Translations under genes and position numbers: made by a program | Notes under the pieces: model-generated | Databases searched by the model: none | Seen by the model: only the letters and a program-made list of their open reading frames with translations | Told to the model about the DNA's origin: nothing | Source: an uncultured Alphaproteobacteria bacterium | GTDB taxonomy: Bacteria; Pseudomonadota; Alphaproteobacteria; RF32; CAG-239 | Direction: 5' to 3' | Length of the DNA: 64,000 nucleotides | NCBI GenBank assembly: GCA_947588655.1 | Contig: CANPYS010000002.1 | Location: forward strand, 11,912-75,911 | Part shown: piece by piece, positions 31,854 through 64,000 of the stretch | Numbering within the stretch: position 1 is the first letter of the stretch | Layout of the letters: every line of letters starts with the position of its first letter

Positions 31854-32417
31854 TTATTCAAAAAACCAGCTCAACGCGTTGGTTTTGCCGCAGATTTCTG
31901 CGGCTTTTTCTTTATCAATCGGGAGCGTGTTTTCGCCACCCCATTCAAACGTTTGCGTCTGATTGTCGGTGCTGATTACAATTTTTAACAAACCCGCTTT
32001 AAACGAATCGGACATCGGCGCGGCAGCTAAATAGCGGCAAGCCTTGGCGCTAATTTCAGGAATTGTAACCACAAACTCGCGACTTCCGATTGAAACCGCA
32101 TTCCCAAGCGAATCGCCACCAATTAAAAGCTCTTTGCCAAGCGCTGATATAATTTTACCGTTACGATTCATTTGCGGATCTATAATGCCTTTTTGGAGCG
32201 CTGTTGCCGTGTCTAAACCCCAATAATTGGGTTGGCGGTTATAATGCTGTCTGATAGATTCTGCTAACGATTCAACCTGAATTTGCGTCTTTTCAAAGCT
32301 TTTTTGCGCTGAAGGCCAAAGCAATATCAATAACAAAAATGCCAAAAACGCAATGCCGAAAGCCAAAACATATTTGTTTTGATAGTTTCTGATTTTCGGC
32401 AAGTTTATGGTTATCAT
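31854..32417 (-). CDS. Pilin-like / pilus structural protein candidate (occupies the pilS position after pilR)
   Basis: Start ATG 32417 is coupled to the pilR-like stop (TAAAATG). It encodes MITINLPKIRNYQNKYVLAFGIAFLAFLLLILLWPS…: a basic N-region then one hydrophobic helix, but no canonical G/(F,M)xxxE prepilin site. Confidence 0.3.
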   Translation of the reverse strand: MITINLPKIRNYQNKYVLAFGIAFLAFLLLILLWPSAQKSFEKTQIQVESLAESIRQHYNRQPNYWGLDTATALQKGIIDPQMNRNGKIISALGKELLIGGDSLGNAVSIGSREFVVTIPEISAKACRYLAAAPMSDSFKAGLLKIVISTDNQTQTFEWGGENTLPIDKEKAAEICGKTNALSWFFE

Positions 32418-32418
32418 T

Positions 32419-33537: not shown

Positions 33538-33547
33538 AAATTATCTC

Positions 33548-35224: not shown

Positions 35225-35241
35225 CTTCCAGTTTTCCAGTC

Positions 35242-38056: not shown

Positions 38057-38072
38057 TTACGTTCCTTTTAGC

Positions 38073-39725
38073 CTAAAGTTTCATACGCGATTCCGGCATT
38101 AAGGGTGATTCCAAAACCACCGGCGTCAACATAATAACCAAAATACTGCGTGTTTTTTCAGCTGTGGCGGTACCGCCCAAAATTGAATTTTCAGCCGAGC
38201 CCGTACCTGTCTTATTCACAGAGTTTTCAACACGCTCATAACCGCTCAAAATAAGCGTTTCGCCTGATGTTAAAGCAACTTCCTGCGTAAAACCGCGCGT
38301 TTCAATAATCGGGTTTTGAATGTATTGACCGCTATTCGGATTTTCCGGATCGCTTGAACCGCCTAAGTCAACCTTTTCAAGCGCAATCAAGTCAGAAAGC
38401 GTAAGGTTAAACATCATCATCATACGACCATGCTCCAAAATGCGGGGCAAAACGTCAAGCGTGAAACCTGTTTCAATTTCTTCCGTTTCGGTGGAAAGAT
38501 CATAATAACTGCCGTCCGAACCCGAGTTTGTTTTGGTAATTTCAGAAATGTAGTTTTGTGTCTGAATAACTTGAATCGGCGCGGGCTTGTTGTTCAAGGT
38601 TGTCACCGTACCGCTCGTAATTAAGTTCGTGGTGCCTTGCTCTGAAAGCGCTTGCAAAACGGCGTTAATGTTCCAATCGCCCGAAACAATGTTCATAGAA
38701 AGCGTGTTCGGGACTTCAGCACCCAAGCCACCCGCACCGGCAATACCGACGTTACGAATCGCATTTTTAGAGCTTGCAAACGCCGCGTTTAAGTCTAAAC
38801 CATACTGGTCGCTATCTGTTATATTAACTTGCAAGACTTTAACACTAATTGCCACTTGGCGCGAAAGTCTGATGTTTTGCTCGTGGATAAACTTCGCCGC
38901 CTTGCGAATATCCATCGGCGTACCCGTTAAGGTAATTGTGCCGTTAGATTGGTCGGTTGTCATTGTCGCGCCCTTGCTGATTAAAGACTTTAAGGAGCTT
39001 TCAATGTTTGACCACAAATCAATAGAAATGTTGGAGCTTAAAGAAACAGACGACGAACCGCCACTTCCTTCTGTGGACGAGCCACCAACGTTAACAGACA
39101 ACGACGGCTTGGTTGGCAACGAATATAGCACAAATGTTTTGGTGATGTATTTATAAAACGTGATTTGTTTCTTTTCATACTTCCACCAAATGCCAAAACG
39201 ATTGCTCACTTCATCAAGCAAGCCGCTTAAAGGCCCTTTATATGAGAGGAGCATTTTATCGCTTTCTGTCCATTGTGCGCCAATCGTTTCCAAACTGGGC
39301 TGATTGTTATCCGCAACACGAATCGCATCTTGCTCTAAGTCATTTTCATAGCGCACGGACAATGATGTGATTTTATTAATCATATCGCCAATTTCATAAA
39401 GCGAAATCGGGCGGTTGCTGATTAAAGTAATGCCGTCCGGCCCTTCTAAGTAACTTGGCAAAGGCAAGCCCTCGTATTCAACCTCGCTTGTATCGCCAAG
39501 CCAAATATCGTTTTTAACCCGCACCACATCATTCGTGGCAACGGGCATGGGCGTTTTTGCCTCTTCTTTTAAACGCACCGTATTTTCAACCTCGCGCTCA
39601 ATGGTCGCGTCCATATCGGTTGAGATGGAGCAGGCGGCCAAACCCGTTAAAGCCGCACCCAAGGTTAAACAAACAGCCTTATTCATACGCATTTTCATCC
39701 TCCATCGTTTCAACAACCAAGACAC
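38073..39725 (-). CDS. Outer-membrane lipoprotein secretin (PilN-R64 / BfpB type)
   Basis: Lipobox LTGLAAC after an n/h region. C-terminal secretin signature …GETLILSGYERVENS…KTRSILVIMLTPVVL; glycine/serine-rich central region; ~530-550 aa like R64 PilN/BfpB. Confidence 0.8.
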   Translation of the reverse strand: MSWLLKRWRMKMRMNKAVCLTLGAALTGLAACSISTDMDATIEREVENTVRLKEEAKTPMPVATNDVVRVKNDIWLGDTSEVEYEGLPLPSYLEGPDGITLISNRPISLYEIGDMINKITSLSVRYENDLEQDAIRVADNNQPSLETIGAQWTESDKMLLSYKGPLSGLLDEVSNRFGIWWKYEKKQITFYKYITKTFVLYSLPTKPSLSVNVGGSSTEGSGGSSSVSLSSNISIDLWSNIESSLKSLISKGATMTTDQSNGTITLTGTPMDIRKAAKFIHEQNIRLSRQVAISVKVLQVNITDSDQYGLDLNAAFASSKNAIRNVGIAGAGGLGAEVPNTLSMNIVSGDWNINAVLQALSEQGTTNLITSGTVTTLNNKPAPIQVIQTQNYISEITKTNSGSDGSYYDLSTETEEIETGFTLDVLPRILEHGRMMMMFNLTLSDLIALEKVDLGGSSDPENPNSGQYIQNPIIETRGFTQEVALTSGETLILSGYERVENSVNKTGTGSAENSILGGTATAEKTRSILVIMLTPVVLESPLMPESRMKL

Positions 39726-40515
39726 GGTTTCCTTTATAGAACGTGGCTATCGGCGCAGGGCGCGCTCTGGCAAATGCCCTGATTAAAGCCGAACTCACAT
39801 CGGCAAAATTACCTCTAAAGATGGCGCCCGCACTTAAAACATAGTTGCGGTTTGTGTTCCAAATTAAGCGCCAACCCGAAATCTCGCTCCATTCGGTCAA
39901 CAAAGCCTTTAAGTTTTGCCCTTCATCAGCCACCCAATCTTTGACTTCATCGTCTGAGGGTTCTTTTTCTTCGTCTTCATCTTCAATGGCAACGCAAGTT
40001 TCTTCATACATTAAGCCTTCGGGGCAATTTTCGCCTTCTGTCGCAAGCTCGGCAGGAGCAGGCGCAGGCTCTGATGTTTGTTCAGCTGTCGGTTCTGACG
40101 CCTTTTCTTCAGGCTCGCTTATAATTTGCGCACCGGCTTCGTAAGCCACAACTTCATCTTCAATGGACGGGGGAATAGACGCCGAGATGTTGTTGCCGGC
40201 CGCCGCCTGCGAAATGCGTTGATCACGTGGTGTGCGCTCGCCGTAACGTCTAAAATCAGCCGGTGTGCGTGTGTAGTTTACAAATGGATCTGTGGCGCAA
40301 AGGCTTGGATCGCCACCGTCTTGGCAAACAGTTGCCGGCGCTGGCGCATACGACTCTTCTACAATAACCGTACTATTTGGACAATCCGGCCCAAAGCAAT
40401 CACTCTCGCCCCACAATCTGTTCCATGTGGAATTAAATGTGGAACAGCCACAAAGAGCAAGAATTCCGGCCAATAAAAACATTTTATTGTACATATTTAT
40501 TCCCCTGTTATTCAT
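39679..40515 (-). CDS. Pilus-associated lipoprotein (PilL/TcpQ-like)
   Basis: Lipobox LALCGCS; acidic/proline-rich middle; C-terminal …WSEISGWRLIWNTNRNYVLSAGAIFRGNFADVSSALIRAFARARPAPIATFYKGNRVLVV resembling the TcpQ/PilL domain. It overlaps the secretin start. Confidence 0.4.
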   Translation of the reverse strand: MNNRGINMYNKMFLLAGILALCGCSTFNSTWNRLWGESDCFGPDCPNSTVIVEESYAPAPATVCQDGGDPSLCATDPFVNYTRTPADFRRYGERTPRDQRISQAAAGNNISASIPPSIEDEVVAYEAGAQIISEPEEKASEPTAEQTSEPAPAPAELATEGENCPEGLMYEETCVAIEDEDEEKEPSDDEVKDWVADEGQNLKALLTEWSEISGWRLIWNTNRNYVLSAGAIFRGNFADVSSALIRAFARARPAPIATFYKGNRVLVVETMEDENAYE

Positions 40516-40581
40516 AATTTTTTAACCATCATACATACCTTAAAACAAATAATCAAGCTCAACAAAGCACTTATTACCAAC

Positions 40582-42126
40582 TCAATAATAGCTTTCTTTT
40601 ATCGGCAATTGAACTCCCTCTAACGTATTTTCTTCCTCCTCATCGCCAAACCGAATGTTACGAATAACAAAAGAGTTTGGCTCACGCGCCGTAAAGACAA
40701 CGTTTATTTTCCTAAAATCAACACCGCGCTCGGCTAATATGCTTGAAAGCAAATTTAAGCGCTTTTTCTGCAATGCTTGTGGCGCGGACGCATCTATGCG
40801 GATTTCAATAATCACGTTATCGTTATCGCGCGCATTGTCGGCAAAGCCACGAATCCATTTAAGCGTTTGCCCTGAAATTTCAGCGCGGTTCGGCTGGAAC
40901 GACAAACGCAATTCAGCCGGCAAGATCGTGGCAGGCTTGTCAATTGGCGGCGGGGTGGCTGATTTTTTAGGTTTGTTCGCTTTTGGATTAGATGGCGTTG
41001 CCGTTTCGGCCAAGTTTTCTTCCGTCACGTTCTCTTCGCCCCCGCTTTTCTCATCGGCCTTTTTCTCGGAAAACCACGATGTTATGCGTTTAAACAAGCC
41101 CGATTTTTTATCGGTTTCATCAAGCGGCTCGTCTTGAACTTGAGGTTTTTCCTCAGTTTTTTCCGCTTTCTCTTTATTTTCAGGTGCATTCGGCTCAAAA
41201 GAAAGTTGCGGCGTTAAATCGGCATCGTTTAAAATCTCGTCCGGAATAGGAATAAGCAGATTTTGAATCATCTTATAAGCAAGTTTGCTTGCCTCGTCAG
41301 GCGTTTGCAACAGTTTGGGACGAAAAGTTTCTTCAACGCTCGCCACATCCGCCGCCGGCAATTCGGGCGCAACCTCAACCGCAGGTTCCGGCGCCTTTAA
41401 TTCTTCTTTGGGCGCGGTTTCTTCTTTTGGCGCTGGCTTTAGCTTTTCAAAGGCCTCAACCGCCATTTTGTTCTTGGCATATTTGTTGCCCCGCGCCATT
41501 GTCCACGGATTTTCAGGTTTATCTTGCGCCAACTCTTTTAAGTTTTCATCAACAATGTCACGGCTTGTTTTACCGTAAGCCACGCCGCCGTCATAAACAG
41601 CGCCGTCCAAAATAACCGACTTTGCCAATGCCGCAAAATCCGCTCGCTCCACGTTTTGATGCACAACCTCGGTCGTTTCCTCAATCGGTAAAATGGTTTC
41701 CCCTGATATTTCAGGTTCATAAACAACTTTTTGCCCGTCAAAGGGCTTTCTGCTCACAATTTCTTCATCTAAAACAATAGCGTGCGCTTTATCAAGCCCA
41801 TAAGTCGTATCAGGCTTAATTTTCCAAGGTTTTTGCCGTGGCACAGGCGCTTTGGCTATTTTTTGAGGTTTCGGTTTTTCAACCGCAAGCGTTTCTATGG
41901 AAGAATAATCAACCTTTTCAAAGGGTGTCGGGGAGATATTTGACAACTCCGTGACTTCAGCTTTATCTTCTGCAAATAGCGAAACGCTTTGCACATCAAG
42001 ATTTTTGGAAGAATTTGCTAAATTTTTGCTTTGGGGCGACTGAAAGAACGTTTTGTCGGCCAATATAACCGCAAATATGGATAAAATAAAACTGCACACA
42101 AAATTTTTAATGCCGTTTTTTTGCAT
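40582..42126 (-). CDS. Secreted/periplasmic proline-lysine-glutamate-rich protein with an OmpA/MotB-like C-terminal domain (first gene of the pil operon)
   Basis: N-terminal signal sequence; long disordered K/P/E region. The last ~100 aa (…LKWIRGFADNARDNDNVIIEIRIDASAPQALQKKRLNLLSSILAERGVDFRKINV…) resemble a peptidoglycan-binding OmpA-like fold. Confidence 0.3.
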   Translation of the reverse strand: MQKNGIKNFVCSFILSIFAVILADKTFFQSPQSKNLANSSKNLDVQSVSLFAEDKAEVTELSNISPTPFEKVDYSSIETLAVEKPKPQKIAKAPVPRQKPWKIKPDTTYGLDKAHAIVLDEEIVSRKPFDGQKVVYEPEISGETILPIEETTEVVHQNVERADFAALAKSVILDGAVYDGGVAYGKTSRDIVDENLKELAQDKPENPWTMARGNKYAKNKMAVEAFEKLKPAPKEETAPKEELKAPEPAVEVAPELPAADVASVEETFRPKLLQTPDEASKLAYKMIQNLLIPIPDEILNDADLTPQLSFEPNAPENKEKAEKTEEKPQVQDEPLDETDKKSGLFKRITSWFSEKKADEKSGGEENVTEENLAETATPSNPKANKPKKSATPPPIDKPATILPAELRLSFQPNRAEISGQTLKWIRGFADNARDNDNVIIEIRIDASAPQALQKKRLNLLSSILAERGVDFRKINVVFTAREPNSFVIRNIRFGDEEEENTLEGVQLPIKESYY

Positions 42127-42383: not shown

Positions 42384-43013
42384 TTAGATTAAGCCCATTT
42401 TTTGCGCCGTGACGACCGCTTGTGTGCGATTGTTGACCTTTAGTGAACGCAAAAGCGCATTAATATGCAGTTTAACCGTCGCTTCAGAAACGCCTATTTC
42501 ATAAGCTATTTGCTTGTTTGACTTGCCTTGCGCAATGAGGTCAAGAACTTGCGATTGCCGATTTGTGAGCATTTTGCCACTCGCGCGGCGACCTGTTCCG
42601 TTTAAGCCTTCAGAAGAATTTTCTATCAGCGCTGGAGGAATATAGGTGCCACCATCTAAAATAAGTTTGAGCGCATTATTCATAACTTTGGGCTCGGAGC
42701 GCTTGGGAATGTAGCCCTTTATGCCACTTGATAAAACTTTTCGGATATTACGAATGTCTTCAGAGGCTGAAACAACAACAATATCAATGCCTTCGGCCTT
42801 TTGGCGGATTTGCTCAATGCCGTCTTCCCATTTCATATCGGGCATATCTAAATCAACAATTATGAGGTTCATACCTGTTTCTTTATCCAAAATTTTTATT
42901 GCCTGCGAAAAGGTTGCCGCCTGCTCTATAACAATTTCCGGATTAATTTCTTCCAGACGCATTGCCAAACCGTCCCTGAACAATGCGTGATCGTCGGCAA
43001 TCAAAACTTTCAT
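42384..43013 (-). CDS. NarL/FixJ (LuxR-HTH) family response regulator at the head of the pil locus
   Basis: REC domain (MKVLIADDHALFRDGL…IIVDLDMPDM…) and C-terminal LuxR HTH (LTNRQSQVLDLIAQGKSNKQIAYEIGVSEATVKLH). True start is ATG 43013 with an AAGGAGG RBS. Confidence 0.85.
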   Translation of the reverse strand: MKVLIADDHALFRDGLAMRLEEINPEIVIEQAATFSQAIKILDKETGMNLIIVDLDMPDMKWEDGIEQIRQKAEGIDIVVVSASEDIRNIRKVLSSGIKGYIPKRSEPKVMNNALKLILDGGTYIPPALIENSSEGLNGTGRRASGKMLTNRQSQVLDLIAQGKSNKQIAYEIGVSEATVKLHINALLRSLKVNNRTQAVVTAQKMGLI

Positions 43014-43126
43014 ATTATCCTCCTTAACTTGTTCATCAGGCGTTTTTAAACGCCACTTGTCCGCTGATATAATCATAAGTGCAGACATTTAAAGTCCAGA
43101 AGTCAAAAAAAACAGTTCTTTGCTTG

Positions 43127-53617: not shown

Positions 53618-55384
53618 ATGAAAGAATATCGGACTCATACCTGCGGCGAACTCCGCAACACCCATATCGGGCAAAAAGTTAAGCTCGCCGGCTGGATTCA
53701 TCGCAAACGCAACTTGGGTAATTTGTGCTTTGTGGACTTACGCGATCATTACGGCATAACGCAATGCGTGGTGGATTCATCGTCCGATTTGTTTGAAAAA
53801 ATTGAAAATACGCGCGTGGAAAGCGTGGTTGGCTTTGAGGGCGAAGTTGTGGCGCGTGAAAGCGTTAATAAAAATATGCCAACCGGCGATATTGAAATTA
53901 AGGTTTCAAGCATGGTGGTTTATTCCGAGGCCGATGTTTTGCCGATTCAGGTTTTTGGCGAAGATGACTCTCCTGAAGAATTGCGCTTGAAATATCGGTT
54001 TTTGGATTTGCGCAAAGAGCGGATTCATAACAACATCAAACTCCGCTCGCAAGTAATTGCCGAAATGCGCCGCTTGATGACCGAGCAAGGCTTTACAGAA
54101 TATCAAACCCCTATTTTGACCGCGTCATCGCCCGAGGGCGCGCGCGACTTTTTGGTGCCTTCGCGGATTAATCCGGGGCGGTTTTATGCCTTGCCCCAAG
54201 CGCCACAACAGTTCAAGCAACTTTTAATGGTTTCAGGCTTTGATAAATATTTTCAAATTGCGCCGTGTTTCCGTGATGAAGACCCGCGCGCCGACCGTAG
54301 CCCTGGCGAATTTTATCAGCTTGATATGGAAATGTCTTTTGCCACGCAAGAAGATGTCTTTGGCGTGATTGAACATACCATGGGTGGCATTTTTAACAAA
54401 TTCGCCAATGGTAAAACCGTTTCGCAAGCGCCTTGGATTCGCATTCCGTTTAGAGAGGCGATGCTTAAATATGGCTCTGATAAGCCTGATTTGCGCAACC
54501 CGCTCATCATTCAAGACGCAACAGACTTTTTTCACAATTCCGGCTTTGGGCTTTATGATTCCAAAGTCCAAAATGATGAAAAAATTCGCGCTATTGTTGC
54601 ACCTCAAGCCGGCGATAAGCCGCGCTCGTTCTTTGATAAAATGGACGGCTTTGCTAAAGAAGAAAATATGGGTGGCGTGGCGTATGTGGCGTTTTCTGCC
54701 TCGGGCGCCAAAGGTATTGCCAAGTTTTTGAGCGCCGAAAAGCTTGATGAACTTAAGCAAAAATTCGGCGTTGCCGAAGGCGATGCTGTTCTTTTTGTTG
54801 GCGGAAAAGAAAAGGTTTTGAATAAATTTGCCGGCAAACTCCGCAATAAATTGGGCGAAGAGCTTGGCTTGTTTGATTATAATGCGTTCAAAATTTGCTG
54901 GATTGTTGATTTTCCGATGTATGAGGAAAATGAAGAAACCGGCAAAGTGGAATTTTCGCATAATCCGTTTTCTATGCCCCAAGGCGGTATGGATGCTTTG
55001 CAAAACAAAAACCCGCTTGATATTTTGGCTTATCAGTATGATATGGTTTGCAACGGCGTGGAGCTTGCCTCGGGCGCGGTGCGTAACCATAAGCCCGAAA
55101 TTATGTATAAGGCGTTTGAAATTGCCGGTTATGACCACTCGGTTGTTGATTCTAAATTCGGCGGTATGATTAATGCCTTTAAATATGGCGCGCCACCGCA
55201 CGCGGGAGCGGCGCCAGGGGTTGACCGTACGGTGATGTTGCTCCTTGATGAGCCGATTATTCGGGATGTGATTATCTTTCCGCTAAACGGCAAAGCGCAA
55301 GATTTGTTGATGCAAGCACCGAATGTGGTGACGGAGGAGCAACTTGCAGAACTCCACATTGCTATCGTAAAGAAAGACGTATAG
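53618..55384 (+). CDS. aspS: Aspartate--tRNA ligase
   Basis: Class II aaRS motifs (…[21 protein letters not shown]…, C-terminal …[23 protein letters not shown]…); 588 aa. Confidence 0.95.
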
Positions 55385-55392
55385 CAGCACAG

Positions 55393-57567
<2,175 letters not shown>

Positions 57568-58044
57568 TTAAGCTTGCATAGGTTCTTTTTTGCCTTTTTT
57601 CTTGACGTTAATTTTTTTATAATTTTCTTGTTCCAGATGCATTTTTGGAATTTTGACAGTTAGCACGCCATCGTCGTATTGAGCGTCAGCGGCGGCATAG
57701 TCCAAATTCCTTGGCAGAGGAATACTGCGTTTAAACATACCGTAAGAAATTTCTGAAAAATAATTATTTTTAGAAGTTTATTCCGTTAAGTGCCGTTTTT
57801 CGCCTGAAATGGTCAAATAGCCTTCATCTGAGATTTTAAGGTCAATATCATCTTCCTTAATCCCTGGCATTTCAGCCGCGACCAAAACAGAGTCTTTATG
57901 ATCCGTAACGTCAATTTTAGGCTCTAAATCGCCCATATCTTCGCCACTAAAGTCAAAAAAGTAGTTCCAAAGGCTTTTCAAGTCGTGCGAGCGTGTGCTT
58001 AAAGCCTGATTTTCTTTGGCAGAATTTGAAACAAGGTTTTTCAT
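57568..58044 (-). pseudogene. Hsp20/α-crystallin small heat-shock protein gene interrupted by an in-frame TAA
   Basis: ATG 58044 (AAGGAG RBS) …EPKIDVTDHKDSVLVAAEMPGIKEDDIDLKISDEGYLTISGEKRHLTE-TAA-TSKNNYFSEISYGMFKRSIPLPRNLDYAAADAQYDDGVLTVKIPK… The same frame continues for 69 codons after the stop at 57780-57778 and completes a normal ~155-aa Hsp20. Confidence 0.6.
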
Positions 58045-58066
58045 CTTCTGTACTCCTTGGAAAAAA

Positions 58067-58252
58067 TTAGTATTCAAAATCTTCTTCTTCAATTTCAACG
58101 ACTTCATCATCAGCCGGATGAGCTTTACAGCCACAGCCGCAACCGCCACTTTTTTCAGCGCCTTGTTTTTTATTTTCGCCTTGGAAAGTGTTGCCGCTTT
58201 CATTATTGTTTTCCGAAGAGTTATTTTCGTTATCCATTGCGTATTTATCCAT
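58067..58252 (-). CDS. Small acidic Asn/Glu-rich protein with a GGCGCGC motif (61 aa)
   Basis: AGGAGG RBS 6 nt upstream of the ATG; MDKYAMDNENNSSENNNESGNTFQGENKKQGAEKSGGCGCGCKAHPADDEVVEIEEEDFEY; located just upstream of the Hsp20 gene. Confidence 0.45.
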   Translation of the reverse strand: MDKYAMDNENNSSENNNESGNTFQGENKKQGAEKSGGCGCGCKAHPADDEVVEIEEEDFEY

Positions 58253-58345
58253 GGTATCCTCCTAAATGTTAAAGTTAAAAAAAGTTTTAGTTGTTCCACG
58301 CACAAAGATATGAGTTCTTTGCCTAATTTTTAGCTAGACAATCGG

Positions 58346-59290
58346 TTAAGCCGTAAACATTCCGCCTGTCACGCTATAAACCTGCGCGGTTGTATAAGAC
58401 GATTCGTCTGAGGCCAATAAGACATAAACGCCCGAAAGCTCCACAGGTTGCCCAGCACGTTTTAAGAGTGTTTCTTGCCCAAAGGGCGGAATTTTTTCAT
58501 CAGGTTGTCCGCCGCTAATTTGCAACGCTGTCCAAATTGGCCCTGGCGCAACGGCATTCACGCGGATTCCTTTTGGGGCGAGTTGCGTTGCCAAAGCCTT
58601 TGTAAAGGCAATAATCGCGCTCTTGGTAGCGGAATAATCAAGCAAAAGTTCGCTTGGCTGAAAAGCCACCACGGAGCTTGTTGTAATAATGCTTGAGCCG
58701 GCTTCCAAAAACGGCAGGGCGGCTTTGACTGTCCAAAACATTGAAAAGAGGTTTACTTCAAAGGTTTTGCGCAGTTGCTGAGTGTCTAAATCTTCAATTT
58801 TGCGTACAAACTGTTGCTGACCGGCATTCAGCGTTAAAATGTCTAAACCGTTGAGTTCTTGGTGCGCGCGCTTGACCATTTCGGCGCAAAAAAGCTCGTC
58901 GCTTACATCGCCTTCAATCAAAACAGCCTTTTGTCCGGCGGCTTCAATCAAGTTTTTCACTTCTTCGGCGTCTTGGCGCTCTGAGGGCAAAAAGCTAATC
59001 GCCACATCTGCCCCTTCGCGAGCATAAGCAATCGCCGCCGCGCGCCCAATGCCCGAGTCGCCACCGGTGACAAGGGCTTTGCGTCCTTGCAAGCGGGCGC
59101 AACCCTCGTACGATTCTTCGCCGCAATCGGGCTTGGGGAGCATATCGGTTTCAACGCCAGGGCGTTTTTGGTGCTGAAGCTCAAAATCGGTGTGATGAAA
59201 TTTTGTTAGCGGGTTGATTAAAATGCTTTTCTTTTTCATGATATTTCTCCTTTTCAGGCAATATGTAGAATAAGAAACGCAAAAATCCAT
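58346..59290 (-). CDS. SDR-family NAD(P)-dependent oxidoreductase (YghA/YhxC-like)
   Basis: Rossmann TGGDSGIGRA, catalytic YSATKSA; probable start at 59239 (MKKKSIL). Confidence 0.8.
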   Translation of the reverse strand: MDFCVSYSTYCLKRRNIMKKKSILINPLTKFHHTDFELQHQKRPGVETDMLPKPDCGEESYEGCARLQGRKALVTGGDSGIGRAAAIAYAREGADVAISFLPSERQDAEEVKNLIEAAGQKAVLIEGDVSDELFCAEMVKRAHQELNGLDILTLNAGQQQFVRKIEDLDTQQLRKTFEVNLFSMFWTVKAALPFLEAGSSIITTSSVVAFQPSELLLDYSATKSAIIAFTKALATQLAPKGIRVNAVAPGPIWTALQISGGQPDEKIPPFGQETLLKRAGQPVELSGVYVLLASDESSYTTAQVYSVTGGMFTA

Positions 59291-59384
59291 AATCCGAAAG
59301 GCTAAAACGTCTTGACAAAATTTGAAAAAAGAGTAACATGCGCTTACAAAAAAATTATGATGTTTAACTATTAATTCTTATATT

Positions 59385-60494
59385 ATGGGAACAAAGTTCT
59401 TTTATGCAGGATCTTTTGATCCTTTTACTTGCGGACATTTAAGTATTGTGTTGCAAGCGCTAAATGTTTTTGACAAAGGAATTATTGCCATTGGCAAAAA
59501 TGATAGCAAAGAGCCTTGGTATAGCCTCAACCTACGCAAACAGATGATTGCTGAGAGCCTAAAGTATTATGATCGGGTAACGGGCAGAAACTTTTCCTCA
59601 AGGGTTGAGATTACTTCTTACGAGGGCTTAACAGTTGATGCGGCTTATCGGCTTGGGGCAACGCACATGGTGCGCGGCTACCGCAACCGTGATGAAAAGC
59701 GAAAAGAAAACCTTTTGTCTGATGTCAATAACAAGCTGTTATCAATCCGTGGAATAAGCATCATTCAGGAGAGCTTTTCGGCGGGGCGAGGGCTAGAAGG
59801 TGTTTCTTCTTCATTAACCAAGAGCCTTTTGGAGCAAGCGGAGTTTATCGCCGCGGCGGCGTATGTGTTGCCACCGGTGTTTAACTTATGCGTTGGCGGC
59901 TTGTCAAACTTTAACCAACAAATGGTTGAGGCGGGCTTTTCTAACAATGTTCAATGGCTAGCAACAATGTCAAAGAGGGAATATCACAACATCGGGCATG
60001 TCGCCTATATGCTGAATTGGCTCAAGATATATCGGAGTCTTTACGGCAAAGAGGAAGATACGCAAAGCCTGTTAAGAGCGATATTCTACCACGACTATGT
60101 TAAGGACGATATTCAAAAATCGTTTGAGGAGTCGGGTTTGCCGGAAGAAAAGTTCGGGTTGTTTGAGGCAACGGATCACTTAAACCTCAAGCGCGAGCTT
60201 AAAGGCGATGAAAGGCTAATACATGACTTTGATTTGGCAATTCTTGCCAATGATGAGCTTTATTACCACTATAAGTGTTGCGTACGTCTTGAATATGCCG
60301 ATGTGCCTTTATCTGCGTATATTGAAGGGCGGCTTGAGGTTTTGCGAAAGCTTTACCGTAACTTCAGGTTTTATGTGTTAAACCCTGTGCTTGAAAGAAA
60401 AGCCAAAGAAAACATCTCGCGTGAGATAGCTTTTTGGGAAAAAGTCAAAAAGCATGGGCTACCGACACATTATGCTGGACTTGAAAATTGCTAA
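59385..60494 (+). CDS. Fusion protein: phosphopantetheine adenylyltransferase-like nucleotidyltransferase (N) plus HD-motif domain (C)
   Basis: N-terminal 130 aa colinear with CoaD (YAGSFDPFTCGHLSIV…IAIGKNDSKEPWYSL…MVRGYRNRDEKRKENLLS). The C-terminal ~200 aa carries H…H(x32)HD…D (…EYHNIGHVAYM…AIFYHDYVKD…DFDLAIL). Confidence 0.6.
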   Translation: MGTKFFYAGSFDPFTCGHLSIVLQALNVFDKGIIAIGKNDSKEPWYSLNLRKQMIAESLKYYDRVTGRNFSSRVEITSYEGLTVDAAYRLGATHMVRGYRNRDEKRKENLLSDVNNKLLSIRGISIIQESFSAGRGLEGVSSSLTKSLLEQAEFIAAAAYVLPPVFNLCVGGLSNFNQQMVEAGFSNNVQWLATMSKREYHNIGHVAYMLNWLKIYRSLYGKEEDTQSLLRAIFYHDYVKDDIQKSFEESGLPEEKFGLFEATDHLNLKRELKGDERLIHDFDLAILANDELYYHYKCCVRLEYADVPLSAYIEGRLEVLRKLYRNFRFYVLNPVLERKAKENISREIAFWEKVKKHGLPTHYAGLENC

Positions 60495-60498
60495 CAAA

Positions 60499-60531
60499 AA
60501 CACCGTTCTTTTTTAAGAACGGTGTTTTTTT
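60499..60531 (+). terminator. Intrinsic terminator
   Basis: aaaaacaccgttctt-tttt-aagaacggtgttttttt. Confidence 0.8.
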
Positions 60532-60608
60532 GCTTTTTAAGGCAAAATCAGCGCAGTGTACATAAAGGTGAGGACTCTTTTAAGGATTAAAATTGCTCTA
60601 AATACCAG

Positions 60609-60860
60609 CTAGACGCATCCCCCTATAATTTGTTTGTATTCTTGAGTTAACACATAGCTCCTATTCTTTTTCGCTTTATTGCCAAGCCTTAAAAAGCCCT
60701 TACTAACCCATTTATTTAGCAATAAACGCGCAGATTGATCCGAAACGTCCAAAAATGCCGCCGCCTGCGCCGTGCTTATTTGCTGATAGCTTGAAAAGAG
60801 TTCTAAAATTCGGCGTTGTTTTAAGTCAAGCTTGCGGAGAAAAATTTCCTGTAAATGTAA
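60609..60860 (-). pseudogene. Startless 83-codon remnant encoding a winged-helix (Fic/AlbA_2-type C-terminal wHTH) domain
   Basis: …KQRRILELFSSYQQISTAQAAAFLDVSDQSARLLLNKWVSKGFLRLGNKAKKNRSYVLTQEY…; preceded by an in-frame stop and no start codon; embedded in an AT-rich junction. Confidence 0.35.
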
Positions 60861-60978
60861 TTAATTTATGATTATTTTATGATTAAATCAAGAAGATTAT
60901 TACTTGACGAAATAATAAAAGCAGGTATAGATTCCAAGAAAGTCTAGTACTTTACTGCTGAATAGAAAGGAAAAGGAT

Positions 60979-61212
60979 ATGCAACAAAAACATACCCCGA
61001 TTACATGGGTCGTTGGTTCGGATTTAAACGCGCTTCTAAAAGAAGATGAAATTTTGGTTTTAGAATTACAAAATCAAAAAATAACTGGTCATGCTCAAAT
61101 TATGCGGCGTGATCAAATTCATACGGATGATGAAAAACTGCGTGCCGAGCTTGAAAAAAAGCCTGCTTATGTTTTAATAAACAAAGAGGCAATGCACTTG
61201 TGCTTTAAATAG
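60979..61212 (+). CDS. Hypothetical small protein (77 aa)
   Basis: AGGAAAAGGA RBS; MQQKHTPITWVVGSDLNALLKEDEILVLELQNQ…. Confidence 0.35.
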   Translation: MQQKHTPITWVVGSDLNALLKEDEILVLELQNQKITGHAQIMRRDQIHTDDEKLRAELEKKPAYVLINKEAMHLCFK

Positions 61213-61216
61213 GTTG

Positions 61217-61936
61217 TTATTGCAGCGGCGGAATATTAAGCTGAGCAATATTGCCGGGCTTGATTTTAACGCTGGAATAACGCATATTTCCTGTTTCAAT
61301 CACAAAGCGCTGACGACCGGTTAATTGTGACGCTAAGTCATAAAAATCGCGTCCGTTGAGGTCTTGCCGTTGCGGATTCATGACGTATAAAACACAGCCT
61401 TGTGTTTTTTCCGCCACACCGCAGCGACTCCGACCTTGCGGCACTTCCGGATTAATAACAACGCCTTGCAAGCCGTTGCGTACGACTTGTTCCGAGGAAA
61501 ACATCAATTTGCCGAAAATAAGCCCTACAAAAAAGCATCCGAGCAAGAGCGCCACAAACTTTTTAGCGTCAAGCCGCGCCATAAACATATCAAACGATGT
61601 TTGATGTTCATAATACGATTCGTTGTCGTATTCATCAGGCTGTTGTGCATAATTTTCGTTATAAGAAGAAACAGGCGCGCGGTTAATTGCGGGTGGTTGT
61701 ATTCCAGCGCTTTGCCCCTGAGATTGAGCGTTTTGCGCCGTATTTACAACAGAAGCCCCCGAAACAGGCTGATTATAATCTGTAATTGGACCCTGATGCG
61801 TTTTCGGGCGCTTGATTTTTCTTAATCTCGGCATATTAGAATTATCAGAATCTTGAAACCAGCCGCCTTGTTCAGCGGTTTGTGTGTTATTTGTTCCCGA
61901 TTCGTTTTTATTTTCAAAATCAGCCATTTGTTTCAC
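61217..61936 (-). CDS. Bitopic membrane protein (N/Q-rich cytoplasmic N-terminus, one TM, ~90-aa periplasmic domain) downstream of a secretin-like gene
   Basis: TM FVALLLGCFFVGLIFGKLMF; starts 2 nt after the stop of the upstream lipoprotein gene. Confidence 0.5.
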   Translation of the reverse strand: MKQMADFENKNESGTNNTQTAEQGGWFQDSDNSNMPRLRKIKRPKTHQGPITDYNQPVSGASVVNTAQNAQSQGQSAGIQPPAINRAPVSSYNENYAQQPDEYDNESYYEHQTSFDMFMARLDAKKFVALLLGCFFVGLIFGKLMFSSEQVVRNGLQGVVINPEVPQGRSRCGVAEKTQGCVLYVMNPQRQDLNGRDFYDLASQLTGRQRFVIETGNMRYSSVKIKPGNIAQLNIPPLQ

Positions 61937-61938
61937 CT

Positions 61939-63201
61939 TTAAAGATTATTTTTAATTTCTTCCGTTGTTTCCATGGTGCGGATAATGCGGGGCACCATAA
62001 AAATGACCGTTTCCGAACGAGTCTCTTCATTGCCGAAAAGCTCGTTAGGCAACCCGATAATCATAAAGTTTTCGCCAAGTTTGTTGCGCACCTTAAAGCG
62101 CGTGACTTGTCCTTGCGTTGTTTCAAGCGTAATTTCAGAGCTTATGTGATTATCATCAGATACATCCGCTTTGGCAAGAATAGACATATCCGATTCGGCG
62201 CAACGCATTTTGCCGCATTTGCCGACATCAAAGCGCGAAAGCCACAAGTTGGGCGAAACAAACTTGCCCTCTGCCACGGGCACAATCCGCGCATTGCGTC
62301 CTAAAAAGCGGCTCAAGTTTTCAAGACTAAGCTCGTTGGTGGTGGTTAAAACCCTGCCAATAACGCCTGTTTGGGCGGTTGTGATTGTGCCAAAATCAAA
62401 CGTATCAAGCAAATTTTTCCACTCAATGTCGCAACCATCGTTCGGAATAATTTTGATAATACCCACGTCATAAGCCACCAACGATGGATTCGTTTTAAAA
62501 TATTCAATCAGATTGACAATGTTGTTCTGAACTTCAACATCGGCATTAAACATAATGGAATAATCCGCCCAGTTGGTTGTCATATCCGTAATGCCCGCGC
62601 CCCGCAACACATCAAGAATAGCAAGCATAATAGGGCGCGAATGTGGCGTAAAGAGCAACAAATCAACCCGACGCGAAAGTGTCATGACTTTGTTTTCGGC
62701 ATTGTAAGTATAAAAAATTTCAGCGGCTTGGGTAATCATATCCACAACATCGGCAAATTCGCCACGGAGATTATCGCCTGAAATGCTTTCGTAAGGCGCG
62801 TCTTTGGCAACAAGCTTAATGCCTGCCTCGTCGGTTAATTGCAAAAGGGCTTGCTCGGCGGGCTGTGTTTCAAACGTAAAGCCCGTAACCTCAAAGCGGG
62901 GCAAGGGGTCATTGCGCGAGGCGCGAACAAGCTTAAAAGAATTGTTAAAAGGGAGCGTTAAAAGCATTTGTTGCGTTTCCCAATTCACATTGCAACGAAG
63001 TGGCGTTTCCAAATCAAGCGCGTTGGCGCCATCAGGGGTGCGAATAGCGCTCTCGCCCATGGGATAAACGGCGTCTGCGTCATATTGCGGGGGCAAAACA
63101 ACTTCAGGCTCTTTCTTAAAATATTGACAGCCGAATAATAAAATTAAACTGCAAAAAAACAAAATCTGTTGGACAGCATGTTTCATTTTAATTTTCTCCA
63201 C
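61939..63201 (-). CDS. Outer-membrane lipoprotein with a secretin-like C-terminal domain (second, smaller secretin-family protein)
   Basis: Probable start 63186 (MKHAVQQILFFCSLILLFGCQ: lipobox LLFGC), coupled TAAAATG to the upstream gene. N0/N1-like segments (…ALLQLTDEAGIKLVAKD…); C-terminal …KVRNKLGENFMIIGLPNELFGNEETRSETVIFMVPRIIR resembling the secretin C-terminus. Confidence 0.5.
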   Translation of the reverse strand: MEKIKMKHAVQQILFFCSLILLFGCQYFKKEPEVVLPPQYDADAVYPMGESAIRTPDGANALDLETPLRCNVNWETQQMLLTLPFNNSFKLVRASRNDPLPRFEVTGFTFETQPAEQALLQLTDEAGIKLVAKDAPYESISGDNLRGEFADVVDMITQAAEIFYTYNAENKVMTLSRRVDLLLFTPHSRPIMLAILDVLRGAGITDMTTNWADYSIMFNADVEVQNNIVNLIEYFKTNPSLVAYDVGIIKIIPNDGCDIEWKNLLDTFDFGTITTAQTGVIGRVLTTTNELSLENLSRFLGRNARIVPVAEGKFVSPNLWLSRFDVGKCGKMRCAESDMSILAKADVSDDNHISSEITLETTQGQVTRFKVRNKLGENFMIIGLPNELFGNEETRSETVIFMVPRIIRTMETTEEIKNNL

Positions 63202-63787
63202 TTTCGGTCTTTAGGGCATCAGGTTTAATTTCCGGTGCTTTAGGCTCGCTTGGTGTAAAAGGTTCTTCAGGGGCAATTTGTGGCGCATTTTCAGAAGATT
63301 CTTCTGCTTCTTGATTTTCTTTTGCCTGTTGTTCGTTTAAAAGTTTGTTGACAATGTCATCCATACTCATACCCGCGCCAACAGTCGGGTCAACTGACTT
63401 ATCAACCTCGCCCAAAGCCTCTTTCATTTTATTAAGCTCCTGTGGATCTTGCTTAAGCATTTCAGGCGAAGAATTGTTGCGCAACTCTTCCTGATAAAGA
63501 TTAAGGTTGTCTTCAAGTGCTTTAATGCCGCCGGCAATCTTTTTTTCAACATATGGATGCAAAGCGGGTGTGCTTAAAATATGGTTGCCCGTATCGCAAA
63601 TTTCTTCCAACACATCTAAAATATAGCCATAAAACGGATATTCTTCCATAGCGATATTGCCCATGCGGACACATCTAGCGGCGATTCGCGAAATGGTGCG
63701 GTCGTAATAATCCCTTAAAACGAGGTAATTATCAACATACCAAAGTTCGTCTTTACGAACTGAAACAGGCTTATCATCAGCGCTCAT
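63188..63787 (-). CDS. Hypothetical cytoplasmic protein with an acidic disordered tail, first gene seen of the second secretin locus
   Basis: AGGAG RBS upstream of ATG 63787; 199 aa; no TM. Confidence 0.45.
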   Translation of the reverse strand: MSADDKPVSVRKDELWYVDNYLVLRDYYDRTISRIAARCVRMGNIAMEEYPFYGYILDVLEEICDTGNHILSTPALHPYVEKKIAGGIKALEDNLNLYQEELRNNSSPEMLKQDPQELNKMKEALGEVDKSVDPTVGAGMSMDDIVNKLLNEQQAKENQEAEESSENAPQIAPEEPFTPSEPKAPEIKPDALKTESGEN

Positions 63788-63872
63788 CTTTTTACTCCTA
63801 TTTTTTAGAATAAATAAGAGTTGTACGTTTGTAAATCAATTTTTTACAGATTTTTACAGGCAAAATAAGTTT

Positions 63873-64000
63873 TTATGACGATTTTGGCTGATTAGGGTCT
63901 GAACCGTCGTCTTCAACATAAGCCCATTCCCAATCTTCGTCGTTATTTTCTGCCGATTCGGCAGGTTTACTCTCAGAGTTTGACCCATCGTCTTCAACAT
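63873..64000 (-). CDS. C-terminal end of an ORF with acidic VEDDGS(N/D) repeats (runs off the window)
   Basis: …VEDDGSNSESKPAESAENNDEDWEWAYVEDDGSDPNQPKSS*; stop at 63875-63873. Confidence 0.3.
   Translation of the reverse strand, partial: VEDDGSNSESKPAESAENNDEDWEWAYVEDDGSDPNQPKSS

What the first reader, a model, noticed from the sequence alone, without database searches (positions are those of the whole stretch)
61217..64000. Second secretin-family locus at the window edge: cytoplasmic protein, lipoprotein secretin (420 aa), bitopic protein, plus an upstream acidic-repeat ORF
A second minus-strand operon, coupled by TAAAATG and a 2-nt gap, encodes a 199-aa cytoplasmic protein, a lipoprotein (LLFGC lipobox) with N0/N1-like segments and a secretin-like C-terminus (…GENFMIIGLPNELFGNEETRSETVIFMVPRIIR), and a bitopic protein with a long N/Q-rich cytoplasmic domain. 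The arrangement (small protein, lipoprotein secretin, bitopic partner) parallels pilL-pilN-pilO, tcpQ-tcpC-tcpR and bfpG-bfpB-bfpC. This could be the distal end of a second, more compact type IVb or secretin-based machine continuing beyond 64000. The partial ORF at the edge ends in VEDDGS(N/D) acidic repeats. Two lipoprotein-secretin systems 20 kb apart in one chromosome would be unusual.
Basis: partly seen in the sequence, partly recalled or inferred. Interest (0 to 1): 0.6.

Follow-up and report, generated by a model that had tools for sequence, protein, structure and literature searches.

The report
Compact gate-less secretin gene trio
The 415-aa lipoprotein is a real but shrunken relative of the outer-membrane secretin channels: it appears to lack the gate, it always sits between the same two unknown partner genes in uncultured gut Alphaproteobacteria, and it has no pilus or secretion motor beside it.

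Summary
The three minus-strand ORFs and the acidic-repeat ORF at the window edge are real.

**Secretin homology.** Pfam, NCBIfam and PDB sequence searches find no secretin in the lipoprotein (415 aa from ATG 63186). Deeper tests do:
- A profile-profile comparison with BfpB-like type IVb secretins gives E 1.4e-38. The C-terminal domain alone gives E 1.4e-8.
- A confident AlphaFold model (pLDDT 88.6) hits only secretins in the PDB.
- The secretin domain is about 64 residues shorter than in its relatives. The deletions map onto the two gate hairpins and the PxLGxIP loop in all 43 aligned family members.

**No second pilus machine.** In a 98%-identical contig, the DNA beyond 64000 holds the rest of the acidic protein, a CI/LexA-like regulator and five tandem VirB6/TrbL-like genes. 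It holds no ATPase, platform or pilin gene.

**The conserved unit.** The trio (cytoplasmic p199-domain protein, short secretin, bitopic protein) is intact in 75/75 testable genome loci and in lineages only 29-41% identical. Some of those lack the VirB6 genes.

**Likely function.** I infer a stand-alone envelope-spanning ring module of unknown cargo, possibly serving the VirB6-like cluster. I rate it a new variant of a known kind.

The parts
63874..64000 (-). 3' end of the acidic-repeat protein gene (390 aa in the near-identical contig L001). It has a conserved N-terminal domain of about 80 aa, then a long acidic disordered region ending in two (D/E)W(E/D)WxY(V/I)(E/D)D motifs.
   Evidence: Translation; full gene in L001 8142-9314. 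Homologues sit upstream of the module in 52/54 loci and in the distant loci L093 and L094 (acidN HMM).
63788..63873 (-). Intergenic region with a weak promoter-like site (63835-63807, TTTACA-17-TATTCT) and an AGGAG Shine-Dalgarno-like sequence before the p199 ATG.
   Evidence: The number of promoter-like matches in the region is no higher than in shuffles, so this is only suggestive.
63188..63787 (-). p199: a soluble, acidic cytoplasmic protein with a conserved helical domain of about 130 aa (residues about 14-145; invariant S33, A37, R38, C39, G43, Y50, Y53, D58, P78, G87) and a variable acidic tail.
   Evidence: It lies immediately upstream of the short secretin in 75/75 loci. In distant lineages the same domain is the C-terminus of 396-621-aa proteins. 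No Pfam, NCBIfam, PDB, PHROG or PADLOC family matches.
61939..63186 (-). Short secretin-like lipoprotein, 415 aa. Signal peptide and lipobox with Cys20 (63127-63186); linker with the invariant LDLETPLRC motif (Cys65); then the N0-N3 and secretin domains listed below.
62491..62964 (-). N0 plus N3-like (ring-building) domains of the lipoprotein, residues about 75-232.
   Evidence: hhalign of the N region against BfpB-like secretins: probability 99.9, E 2.9e-31 over 192 columns. phmmer tail hits are genuine PF00263 secretins that match query residues 80-300. AF2 secondary structure. The BfpB domain order LG-N0-N3-secretin comes from PMC12531336.
61969..62484 (-). Compact secretin domain, residues about 235-406. 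The outer-barrel strands and the bases of the inner-barrel strands are kept. The GATE1 hairpin beyond Gly322, the GATE2 loop and most of the PxLGxIPxxGxLF loop are deleted. It ends in the secretin-type motif ETVIFMVPRIIR.
   Evidence: Gate definitions come from PMC6155069. The stretch from FLG to PR is 107 aa here against 171 aa in relative P0234 (counted by hand from the sequence printed).
61217..61927 (-). Bitopic inner-membrane protein, 236 aa. The cytoplasmic N/Q/S-rich disordered region carries a basic RLRKIKRPK motif; the TM segment is at about 119-145 (61493-61573); the conserved periplasmic domain of about 85 aa (61220-61480) has two invariant Cys.
   Evidence: It lies immediately downstream of the short secretin in 75/75 loci and in the distant loci L092, L093, L094 and L097. 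No known family matches.

Best explanation
The 415-aa protein is a miniaturised secretin, anchored by lipid, that descends from BfpB/TcpC/PilN-type (type IVb pilus) lipoprotein secretins. It keeps the lipid anchor, the N0 and N3 ring-building domains, the outer-barrel strands and the base of the inner barrel. It has lost the distal halves of the two gate hairpins (GATE1 and GATE2), which close canonical secretin channels.

It is made with two obligatory partners. One is a bitopic inner-membrane protein whose conserved periplasmic domain of about 85 aa most likely docks on the N0 ring, as GspC, PilP and PrgH do in canonical systems. The other is a cytoplasmic p199-domain protein.

Together with an upstream acidic-repeat protein and a CI/LexA-like regulator, they form a self-contained module that spans the envelope. 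It would be an outer-membrane-tethered multimeric ring coupled through the bitopic protein to disordered cytoplasmic partners. It is not a pilus or type II secretion machine, because it has no ATPase, platform or pilins. I expect it to act as a permanently open (ungated) passive conduit or envelope-spanning scaffold.

Shown: the homology, the domain loss and the gene association. Inferred: ring formation, N0 docking and the conduit or scaffold role.
For: **Homology**
- phmmer finds a 147-cluster family. Its weak tail consists of PF00263 secretins.
- hhalign of the family against those secretins: probability 99.95, E 1.4e-38, 337 columns, reaching the C-terminal PR motif.
- The C-terminal domain alone gives E 1.4e-8, while the N-versus-C cross controls give E 0.4-0.6.
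- The relatives' profile hits BfpB (9u5s) at 6e-47.
- The AF2 model has pLDDT 88.6 and pTM 0.78. All Foldseek PDB hits with E <= 0.001 are secretins, led by PilQ at 6.5e-10 and BfpB at 9.6e-10.

**Gate loss**
- The deletions of 24, 22 and about 20 aa fall where PulD, ExeD and BfpB carry GATE1, GATE2 and the PxLGxIP loop. Gate definitions are from PMC6155069.
- The spacing is constant in all 43 members at 23-75% identity: G322 to L337 is 12-14 residues and L354 to G359 is 4-5 residues.
- In the model, the GATE1 strands are stubs of 5 and 8 residues.

**Module**
- p199 lies upstream in 75/75 loci and the bitopic gene downstream in 75/75.
- The same trio occurs in lineages 29-41% identical.
- No ATPase, pilin or platform gene lies nearby.
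Against: - The curated secretin HMM (PF00263) does not match, even at E <= 1, and the PDB profile search finds nothing.
- Foldseek TM-scores are low (0.13-0.28), because the monomer model does not reproduce the assembled conformation.
- No multimer model or coordinates were available, so ring formation, pore size and outer-membrane insertion were not tested.
- An ungated outer-membrane pore would be costly to the cell. The ring may therefore be plugged by something else, or may not cross the membrane.
Confidence: 0.45

Rival explanations
1. The short secretin is the outer-membrane port of an apparatus built from the neighbouring cluster of five VirB6/TrbL-like polytopic membrane proteins. One orthologue in relatives is fused to an M23/VgrG3-like peptidoglycan hydrolase. 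This would be a type IV-secretion-derived or new kind of transport system, in which the VirB6-like proteins cross the inner membrane, the hydrolase opens the wall and the gate-less secretin crosses the outer membrane. The acidic-repeat proteins would be cargo or adaptors.
For: - The VirB6-like cluster lies 5-10 kb upstream on the same strand in 49/52 genome loci and in 33/34 metagenome loci anchored on the regulator.
- PF04610 matches one paralogue at 2.6e-9, and distant homologues also carry it.
- M23 and VgrG3-C domains are fused to a TrbL core.
- The same CI/LexA-like regulator accompanies the VirB6 cluster alone (L087) and the secretin module alone (L093, L094, L061), so it bridges the two.
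Against: - The module stands without any VirB6-like gene within 10 kb in L093, L094, L024, L033 and L061.
- The VirB6 cluster is followed by rpsB/tsf, not the module, in L087.
- No VirB4, VirB9, VirB10, VirB11 or VirD4 gene was seen near either unit.
- No known type IV secretion system uses a secretin (established knowledge).
- All the adjacency data come from one clade (at least 55% identity), so they may reflect inherited gene order.
Confidence: 0.3
2. The protein is not a channel. It would be a secretin-derived periplasmic or outer-membrane sensor or anchor whose N0/STN-type domain signals to the bitopic protein (as the FecA STN domain signals to FecR) and on to the adjacent HTH regulator. 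Alternatively it could be an envelope landmark that recruits acidic disordered hub proteins, in the manner of FimV/HubP.
For: - There is no energy source or cargo machinery nearby.
- The regulator gene is conserved at the head of the module in 52/54 loci.
- Homologues give weak STN hits.
- All the cytoplasmic partners are rich in disordered regions, with acidic repeats and a basic motif.
Against: - The whole secretin domain, including the outer-barrel strands and the C-terminal PR motif, is conserved across the family. That is unnecessary for an N0-only signalling role.
- The bitopic protein has no recognisable anti-sigma or signalling domain.
- The analogy rests on my own knowledge and was not tested.
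Confidence: 0.15
3. One reading: these genes are the distal end of a second, more compact type IVb pilus or other secretin-based machine, whose ATPase, platform and pilin genes lie beyond coordinate 64000.
For: - The closest canonical relatives are BfpB-type secretins.
- The order 'secretin followed by a bitopic gene' recalls bfpB-bfpC and tcpC-tcpR (my own knowledge).
Against: - Beyond 64000 lie the acidic protein, the regulator and five VirB6-like genes.
- About 20 kb upstream in L090 holds no ATPase, platform or pilin gene.
- Distant homologues are flanked by housekeeping genes.
- The gate hairpins that accommodate a pilus are missing.
- No TcpQ-like partner was found.
Confidence: 0.05

Closest known systems
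BfpB / TcpC / PilN-type lipoprotein secretins of type IVb pili (BfpB-BfpG structure 9u5s, PMC12531336)
   Same: - N-terminal lipobox Cys.
- A linker before N0, then N0, then N3, then the secretin domain, with no S domain.
- The sequence relatives of the query family hit BfpB best (6e-47).
- Full-length profile-profile match with E 1.4e-38.
- BfpB gives the highest TM-score among the Foldseek hits.
   Different: - About 64 residues shorter in the secretin domain, with the GATE1 and GATE2 hairpins and the PxLGxIP loop removed. BfpB has a central gate.
- No BfpG/TcpQ partner.
- No pilus genes nearby.
- PF00263 does not match.
- It is not a recent copy of the window's own PilN-like secretin at 38073-39725 (BLASTP E 4.3).
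Canonical secretins of T2SS, T3SS, T4aP and filamentous phage (GspD/PulD, InvG, PilQ, pIV)
   Same: - The fold class: all 38 Foldseek PDB hits with E <= 0.001 are these proteins.
- The C-terminal '...E-L/V-x-I/V-x-x-x-P-R-I/V' strand and the conserved Gly at the GATE1 kink (Gly322) are kept.
   Different: - No gate hairpins and no S domain or pilotin.
- Only N0 and N3 are present.
- No partner machine.
- Gate-region point mutants of pIV and PulD are leaky (PMC6155069), but I found no natural gate-deleted secretin in the searched literature.
Rickettsiales-type (rvh) type IV secretion loci with several tandem VirB6 paralogues (PMC2653234)
   Same: The neighbouring DNA carries five tandem VirB6/TrbL-like genes with large extensions, in an alphaproteobacterial host.
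   Different: - No VirB3/4 or VirB8-11/D4 genes were seen near the cluster.
- rvh systems have no secretin.
- The link between this cluster and the trio is by gene order only.

Membership tests
Secretin superfamily (PF00263 and relatives) | The C-terminal secretin domain is recognised by the curated family HMM. | tested here: not met
   Pfam hmmscan gives no hit at E <= 1. NCBIfam gives none. phmmer and hmmsearch against PDB give none.
Secretin superfamily (PF00263 and relatives) | Homology of the C-terminal domain to secretin domains by profile-profile comparison. | tested here: met
   Full length: probability 99.95, E 1.4e-38. C-domain alone: probability 95.5, E 1.4e-8 over 114 columns covering template positions 8-187 of 191, with cross controls at E 0.4-0.6.
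Secretin superfamily (PF00263 and relatives) | N0 (STN-like) and N3 ring-building domains precede the secretin domain. | tested here: met
   N region against the secretin N regions: E 2.9e-31. phmmer hits to PF00263 proteins over query residues 80-300. Foldseek hits to isolated N0-N1 crystal structures and to the PilQ N0 domain.
Secretin superfamily (PF00263 and relatives) | The predicted fold matches solved secretins. | tested here: met
   AF2 pLDDT 88.6. All 38 Foldseek PDB hits with E <= 0.001 are secretins, though with low TM-scores of 0.13-0.28.
Secretin superfamily (PF00263 and relatives) | An inner barrel with GATE1 and GATE2 hairpins closes the channel. | tested here: not met
   Deletions of 24 and 22 residues lie at the positions of GATE1 and GATE2. 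They are family-wide. The conclusion rests on alignment and secondary structure, not on a 3D multimer.
Secretin superfamily (PF00263 and relatives) | Assembles into a 12-17-mer ring in the outer membrane. | not testable with these tools
   No multimer prediction was available, and model coordinates cannot be read.
Type IVb pilus machine (Bfp/Tcp/R64 Pil) | The operon carries an assembly ATPase (T2SSE), a platform protein (T2SSF), a prepilin and a TcpQ/BfpG partner. | tested here: not met
   None is present in 9.2 kb beyond the window (L001) or in about 20 kb in L090. Distant loci are flanked by housekeeping genes. All these genes are present in the first locus at 31854-42126.
Type IV secretion system (VirB/D4, rvh) | VirB6/TrbL occurs together with VirB4 and the VirB7-VirB9-VirB10 core and the VirB11/VirD4 ATPases. 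| tested here: inconclusive
   VirB6/TrbL-like paralogues are adjacent (PF04610 at 2.6e-9). No other VirB gene lies within the DNA that could be read. Whole genomes could not be searched.

The most novel reading that the evidence does not exclude
A natural, gate-less mini-secretin is the outer-membrane element of a previously undescribed envelope-spanning system in uncultured gut and rumen Alphaproteobacteria. It would work with the adjacent VirB6-like/M23-hydrolase membrane proteins as a secretin plus type-IV-secretion hybrid, exporting or displaying the highly acidic, disordered proteins encoded beside it.
Probability: 0.2. Interest if true: 0.85.

Novelty: new variant of a known kind. Interest (0 to 1): 0.6.

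Why it matters
Secretins are regarded as gated channels that always serve an ATP-driven inner-membrane machine (T2SS, T3SS, type IV pili or filamentous phage). This family differs on both counts.

- It has 147 clusters at 50% identity and no annotation.
- It keeps the ring-building and barrel parts, but has lost both gate hairpins and every known partner machine.
- It has instead gained a fixed pair of unknown partners.

If it still forms a ring, it would be the first natural ungated secretin. It would then offer a test of what the gates are for, and a possible outer-membrane component for the multi-VirB6 loci that are typical of host-associated Alphaproteobacteria. It would also give a name and a testable model to several conserved 'hypothetical' genes that are widespread in human, ruminant and other animal gut metagenomes.

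Tried and rejected
- **Curated family and PDB sequence searches on the three proteins.** Pfam, NCBIfam, PHROGs, PADLOC and PDB gave nothing usable. The IglI hit (E 0.0048, 16.8 bits against a cut-off of 100) and the capsid hit for the bitopic alignment are low-complexity or chance matches.
- **Recent duplication of the window's own type IVb secretin.** Rejected: BLASTP E 4.3.
- **Bitopic periplasmic domain as TcpQ/BfpG-like, or related to any protein of the first pil locus.** hhalign gives E 0.09-0.66, so no relation was detected.
- **Structure of the bitopic protein.** The single-sequence model is unusable (pLDDT 49.8).
- **Plasmid origin.** There is no plasmid homologue.
- **Phage origin.** The single 'Bacteriophage sp.' hit (MT835708.1, marked UNVERIFIED) is the same bacterial locus, with the VirB6 cluster, regulator and module.
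- **Looking further upstream of the VirB6 cluster.** Several contigs end 1.4-2 kb before it. L090 shows only a lipoprotein, an alpha/beta-hydrolase-like protein, an extra VirB6 paralogue and a 64-aa membrane protein.
- **Literature.** Searches for a gate-less or truncated natural secretin, or for secretion systems of RF32-type gut Alphaproteobacteria, found nothing relevant.
Full report
**1. Observation**

The minus strand of 61217-64000 carries three tightly packed ORFs and the 3' end of a fourth.

- p199 (63188-63787) has no hydrophobic segment and is acidic.
- The second ORF is listed from GTG 63201. All database homologues start at the ATG at 63186, and a GGAG Shine-Dalgarno-like sequence lies upstream. 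This gives a 415-aa protein with the signal peptide MKHAVQQILFFCSLILLFGC and a lipobox Cys20.
- The third ORF most likely starts at ATG 61927, after AAGGTGA, and gives 236 aa. It has one TM segment at about residues 119-145, an N/Q/S-rich N-terminal half and a C-terminal domain of about 85 aa.
- The edge ORF ends ...DEDWEWAYVEDDGSDPNQPKSS.

Only the '2-nt gap' depends on the choice of start codon.

**2. Is the lipoprotein a secretin?**

The curated tests say no. Pfam and NCBIfam give no hit even at E <= 1. phmmer against PDB and an HMM of the family against PDB also find nothing.

An exhaustive phmmer search of 1.8 billion cluster representatives finds 147 clusters.

- The best ~60 are proteins of 370-470 aa with no Pfam domain, mostly lipoproteins.
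- The weak tail (E 1e-10 to 1e-3) consists of proteins of 440-690 aa that all carry PF00263 Secretin. They match query residues about 80-300, which is the region of their N domains.

I aligned 43 family members (A1) and 23 of these genuine secretins (A2) and compared the profiles.

- Full length: probability 99.95, E 1.4e-38, 337 columns. Query 78-418 aligns to template 66-477, so the match runs through to the terminal '...E-x-V-I-x-x-x-P-R-I-I' strand.
- To check that the N domains were not carrying the result, I cut both alignments. C-domain against secretin domain gives probability 95.5 and E 1.4e-8 over 114 columns, spanning template positions 8-187 of 191. N against N gives E 2.9e-31. The two cross comparisons give E 0.4-0.6.
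- The A2 profile hits BfpB, the type IVb lipoprotein secretin (9u5s), at 6e-47. GspD, PilQ, pIV and RcpA follow at a distance.

AlphaFold2 with the 43-sequence alignment gives a confident model (pLDDT 88.6, pTM 0.78). Foldseek against the PDB returns 38 hits with E <= 0.001, and all of them are secretins:

| Hit | E-value |
|---|---|
| PilQ 6w6m | 6.5e-10 |
| BfpB 9u5s | 9.6e-10 |
| InvG, GspD, pIV, RcpA and isolated N0-N1 domains | weaker, down to 0.001 |

TM-scores are low (0.13-0.28), as expected when a monomer model is compared with subunits taken from assembled rings.

Conclusion: the protein is a divergent member of the secretin superfamily, closest to BfpB-type secretins. It is not a recent copy of the window's own PilN-like secretin at 38073-39725.

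**3. What is unusual about it**

Between the conserved helix 'FLG...' and the final 'PR' the query has 107 residues. Relative P0234 has 171 (sequence printed, counted by hand). Both hhalign runs place three deletions at the same spots.

1. 24 residues are missing directly after 'RFDVG322KC324G'.
2. 22 residues are missing between 'EITLETTQ' and 'GQVTRFKV'.
3. About 20 residues are missing from the loop that carries PxLGxIPxxGxLF in canonical secretins. Only 'P-NEL-F-G' is left.

Alignments of PulD, ExeD and BfpB to the same profile locate these deletions.

- Deletion 1 corresponds to PulD 'FNVGQEVPVLTGSQTTSGDNIFNTVERKTVG'.
- Deletion 2 corresponds to PulD 'EVSSVADSASSTSSDLGATFNTR'.

According to PMC6155069:

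- GATE1 is the inner-barrel hairpin of strands 4 and 5. It is kinked at InvG Asn386 (equivalent to PulD Gly458 and GspD Gly453) and at Gly407, and its spoke-like projections close the lumen.
- GATE2 is the next hairpin, formed by strands 6 and 7.

The exact residue equivalence of PulD Gly458 within 'NVGQEVPVLTG' rests on my reading of the alignment. It is uncertain by a few residues, which does not change the conclusion.

The family therefore keeps the kink glycine (Gly322, conserved in at least 90% of members) but lacks the part of GATE1 beyond it, and lacks the GATE2 loop. The AF2 secondary structure agrees. Strands 316-320 and 335-342 are short stubs joined by a 14-residue loop, and strands 347-356 and 359-369 are joined by a tight turn.

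The compact form is not peculiar to this genome. In all 43 members (23-75% identity), G322 to L337 is 12-14 residues and L354 to G359 is 4-5 residues.

Two cysteines are invariant in 43/43 sequences: Cys65, in the LDLETPLRC motif between the lipid anchor and N0, and Cys324, at the truncated GATE1.

BfpB, the nearest solved relative, has the domain order LG-N0-N3-secretin, contributes four strands to each barrel, and has a central gate (PMC12531336). I found no report of a natural gate-deleted secretin in the searchable literature.

**4. What lies beyond 64000**

An ENA contig (L001) overlaps window 55340-64000 at 98.3% nucleotide identity and extends 9.2 kb further. Going upstream from the window edge, it carries:

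- the complete acidic protein (390 aa);
- a 324-aa regulator with two HTH_3 domains, whose homologue in L093 also has a Peptidase_S24-like C-terminus;
- five tandem polytopic membrane proteins related to one another, one of which matches TrbL/VirB6 (PF04610, 2.6e-9).

In relatives, the last paralogue carries M23 and VgrG3-C peptidoglycan-hydrolase domains.

The DNA upstream of the cluster could be read in L090. It holds a further VirB6 paralogue, a 64-aa membrane protein, an alpha/beta-hydrolase-like protein, a small lipoprotein, and then divergently oriented genes including a Zeta-toxin-domain protein.

No T2SSE or T2SSF gene, no prepilin and no VirB4, VirB9, VirB10, VirB11 or VirD4 gene appears anywhere in this DNA. 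By contrast, the first locus of the window (31854-42126) is a complete R64/Bfp-like type IVb pilus operon with Bundlin, T2SSF, T2SSE, PilO, Secretin and TcpQ.

**5. The conserved unit**

A scan of one genome per species returned 259 loci. All 80 that were kept come from uncultured gut, rumen or faecal 'Alphaproteobacteria' MAGs; a few carry obviously wrong bin names. Counts in those loci:

| Neighbour of the short secretin | Loci with it / loci testable |
|---|---|
| p199, immediately upstream | 75/75 |
| Bitopic gene, immediately downstream | 75/75 |
| Acidic protein | 52/54 |
| Regulator | 52/54 |
| VirB6-like cluster | 49/52 |

L024, L033 and L061 lack the VirB6-like cluster. Metagenome loci anchored on the regulator give 33 with both neighbours and 1 with the VirB6 cluster only.

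All these loci are at least 55% identical to the query, so gene order alone is weak evidence. Homologues at 29-41% identity are more telling.

- In L093 and L094 the locus reads: regulator, a homologue of the acidic protein (244 or 501 aa), a 617-621-aa protein whose C-terminus is the p199 domain, the short secretin, then the bitopic protein. Housekeeping genes flank it and no VirB6-like gene lies within 10 kb.
- L091, L096 and L097/L098 have a p199-domain protein upstream. L092 and L097 have the bitopic protein downstream.
- Conversely, in L087 the VirB6 cluster and the regulator are followed by rpsB and tsf.

The trio is therefore the stable core. The acidic protein and the regulator usually accompany it. 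The VirB6 cluster is a frequent neighbour but not an obligatory one, and the regulator is found with either unit.

**6. Mechanism**

*Shown:*
- a secretin-superfamily lipoprotein lacking the gate hairpins;
- an obligatory bitopic partner whose conserved periplasmic domain has two invariant Cys;
- an obligatory cytoplasmic partner domain;
- the absence of any motor.

*Inferred:* in every characterised secretin system the N0 ring is held by an inner-membrane-anchored partner (GspC, PilP, PrgH, pI; established knowledge). I therefore propose three steps.

1. The lipoprotein forms an outer-membrane-tethered ring.
2. Its N0 domains bind the periplasmic domain of the bitopic protein.
3. The disordered cytoplasmic tail of the bitopic protein (with the basic RLRKIKRPK motif in this clade) recruits the acidic p199-domain and acidic-repeat proteins.

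Without gates and without an ATPase, the assembly would be a passive open conduit or an envelope-spanning scaffold. I put 0.45 on this general picture.

The main rival (0.3) is that the ring is the outer-membrane port for the VirB6-like/M23 cluster. That would make a secretin plus type-IV-secretion hybrid. A non-channel signalling or landmark role gets 0.15.

**7. Comparison and novelty**

Membership of the secretin superfamily is supported by profile-profile and fold evidence, although the curated HMM fails. One defining functional feature, the gated inner barrel, was tested and not met. Membership of a type IVb pilus system is not met.

I therefore file this as a new variant of a known kind: a compact, apparently gate-less secretin within a new conserved gene module. 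No component of the trio has any annotation in the libraries searched, and no homologue carries a source name other than 'hypothetical protein'.

**8. Limits**

- No multimer modelling was possible and model coordinates could not be read.
- The fold of the bitopic domain is unresolved.
- Whole genomes could not be searched for distant partner genes.
- The gate assignment rests on alignments and on published gate definitions, not on a 3D comparison.

Noticed in passing
window 31854-42126 (minus strand): A complete R64/Bfp-like type IVb pilus operon: Bundlin-like pilin, T2SSF, T2SSE, PilO, a 550-aa PF00263 secretin and a TcpQ-domain lipoprotein. It also has two ORFs of 514-515 aa with no Pfam match (35242-36789 and 40582-42126). 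A LuxR-type response regulator lies at 42384-43088.
   Followed up: partly
L001 1-6965 (9.2 kb beyond window end); also L005, L087-L090, L095: Five or six tandem VirB6/TrbL-like paralogues with Cys-rich N-termini and Gly-rich C-terminal tails. In relatives the last one is fused to M23 peptidase and VgrG3-C-like peptidoglycan-hydrolase domains. No other type IV secretion genes are nearby. The arrangement recalls the multi-VirB6 loci of Rickettsiales.
   Followed up: partly
lipoprotein residues 65 and 324 (window 62992-62994 and 62215-62217): Two cysteines are invariant in all 43 aligned family members. One lies in the LDLETPLRC motif before N0 and the other sits exactly at the truncated GATE1 site. 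They may form a disulfide that ties the N-terminal linker to the inner barrel. This could not be checked without model coordinates.
   Followed up: partly
L095 = GenBank MT835708.1 (whole record, 20,889 bp): A record deposited as 'UNVERIFIED: Bacteriophage sp.' from human faeces is the same bacterial locus (four VirB6-like genes, regulator, acidic protein, p199, short secretin, bitopic protein). It is evidently a bacterial contig misfiled as viral.
   Followed up: yes
window 63874-64000 and L001 8142-9314; L005 7371-9434; L090 18706-20277: The acidic proteins vary from 244 to about 800 aa through lineage-specific acidic repeats. They keep an N-terminal domain of about 80 aa. In the query clade they also keep a doubled (D/E)W(E/D)WxY(V/I)(E/D)(E/D) motif in the acidic C-terminal half, right at the C-terminus in the window's protein. 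Distant homologues end in DIEI(V/L)SD. This looks like a short linear binding or targeting motif.
   Followed up: no
window 24582-28433 (plus strand): An AddA/UvrD-type helicase-nuclease (1283 aa) carries an insertion of pentapeptide repeats (residues about 378-454) inside the helicase N-terminal domain. Its partner at 21800-24709 is a PD-(D/E)XK nuclease.
   Followed up: no
L097 2901-5287: Directly downstream of a distant copy of the trio lie four or five small paralogous ORFs (109-301 aa). They share an 'ALxxGADPN' motif that looks ankyrin-repeat-like by eye, though no family search was run on them. This may hint at a host-associated lifestyle.
   Followed up: no
L090 1786-4461; L094 1-1340: Large proteins with a Zeta-toxin or AAA_33 kinase domain (891 aa, and more than 523 aa) lie close to the locus in two unrelated lineages, on the opposite strand.
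   Followed up: no
window 60979-61212 (plus strand): A 77-aa ORF converges on the end of the bitopic gene, with only 4 nt between the two stop codons. It has no Pfam match. Among the fetched loci it has a homologue only in the near-identical contigs and in L007.
   Followed up: partly
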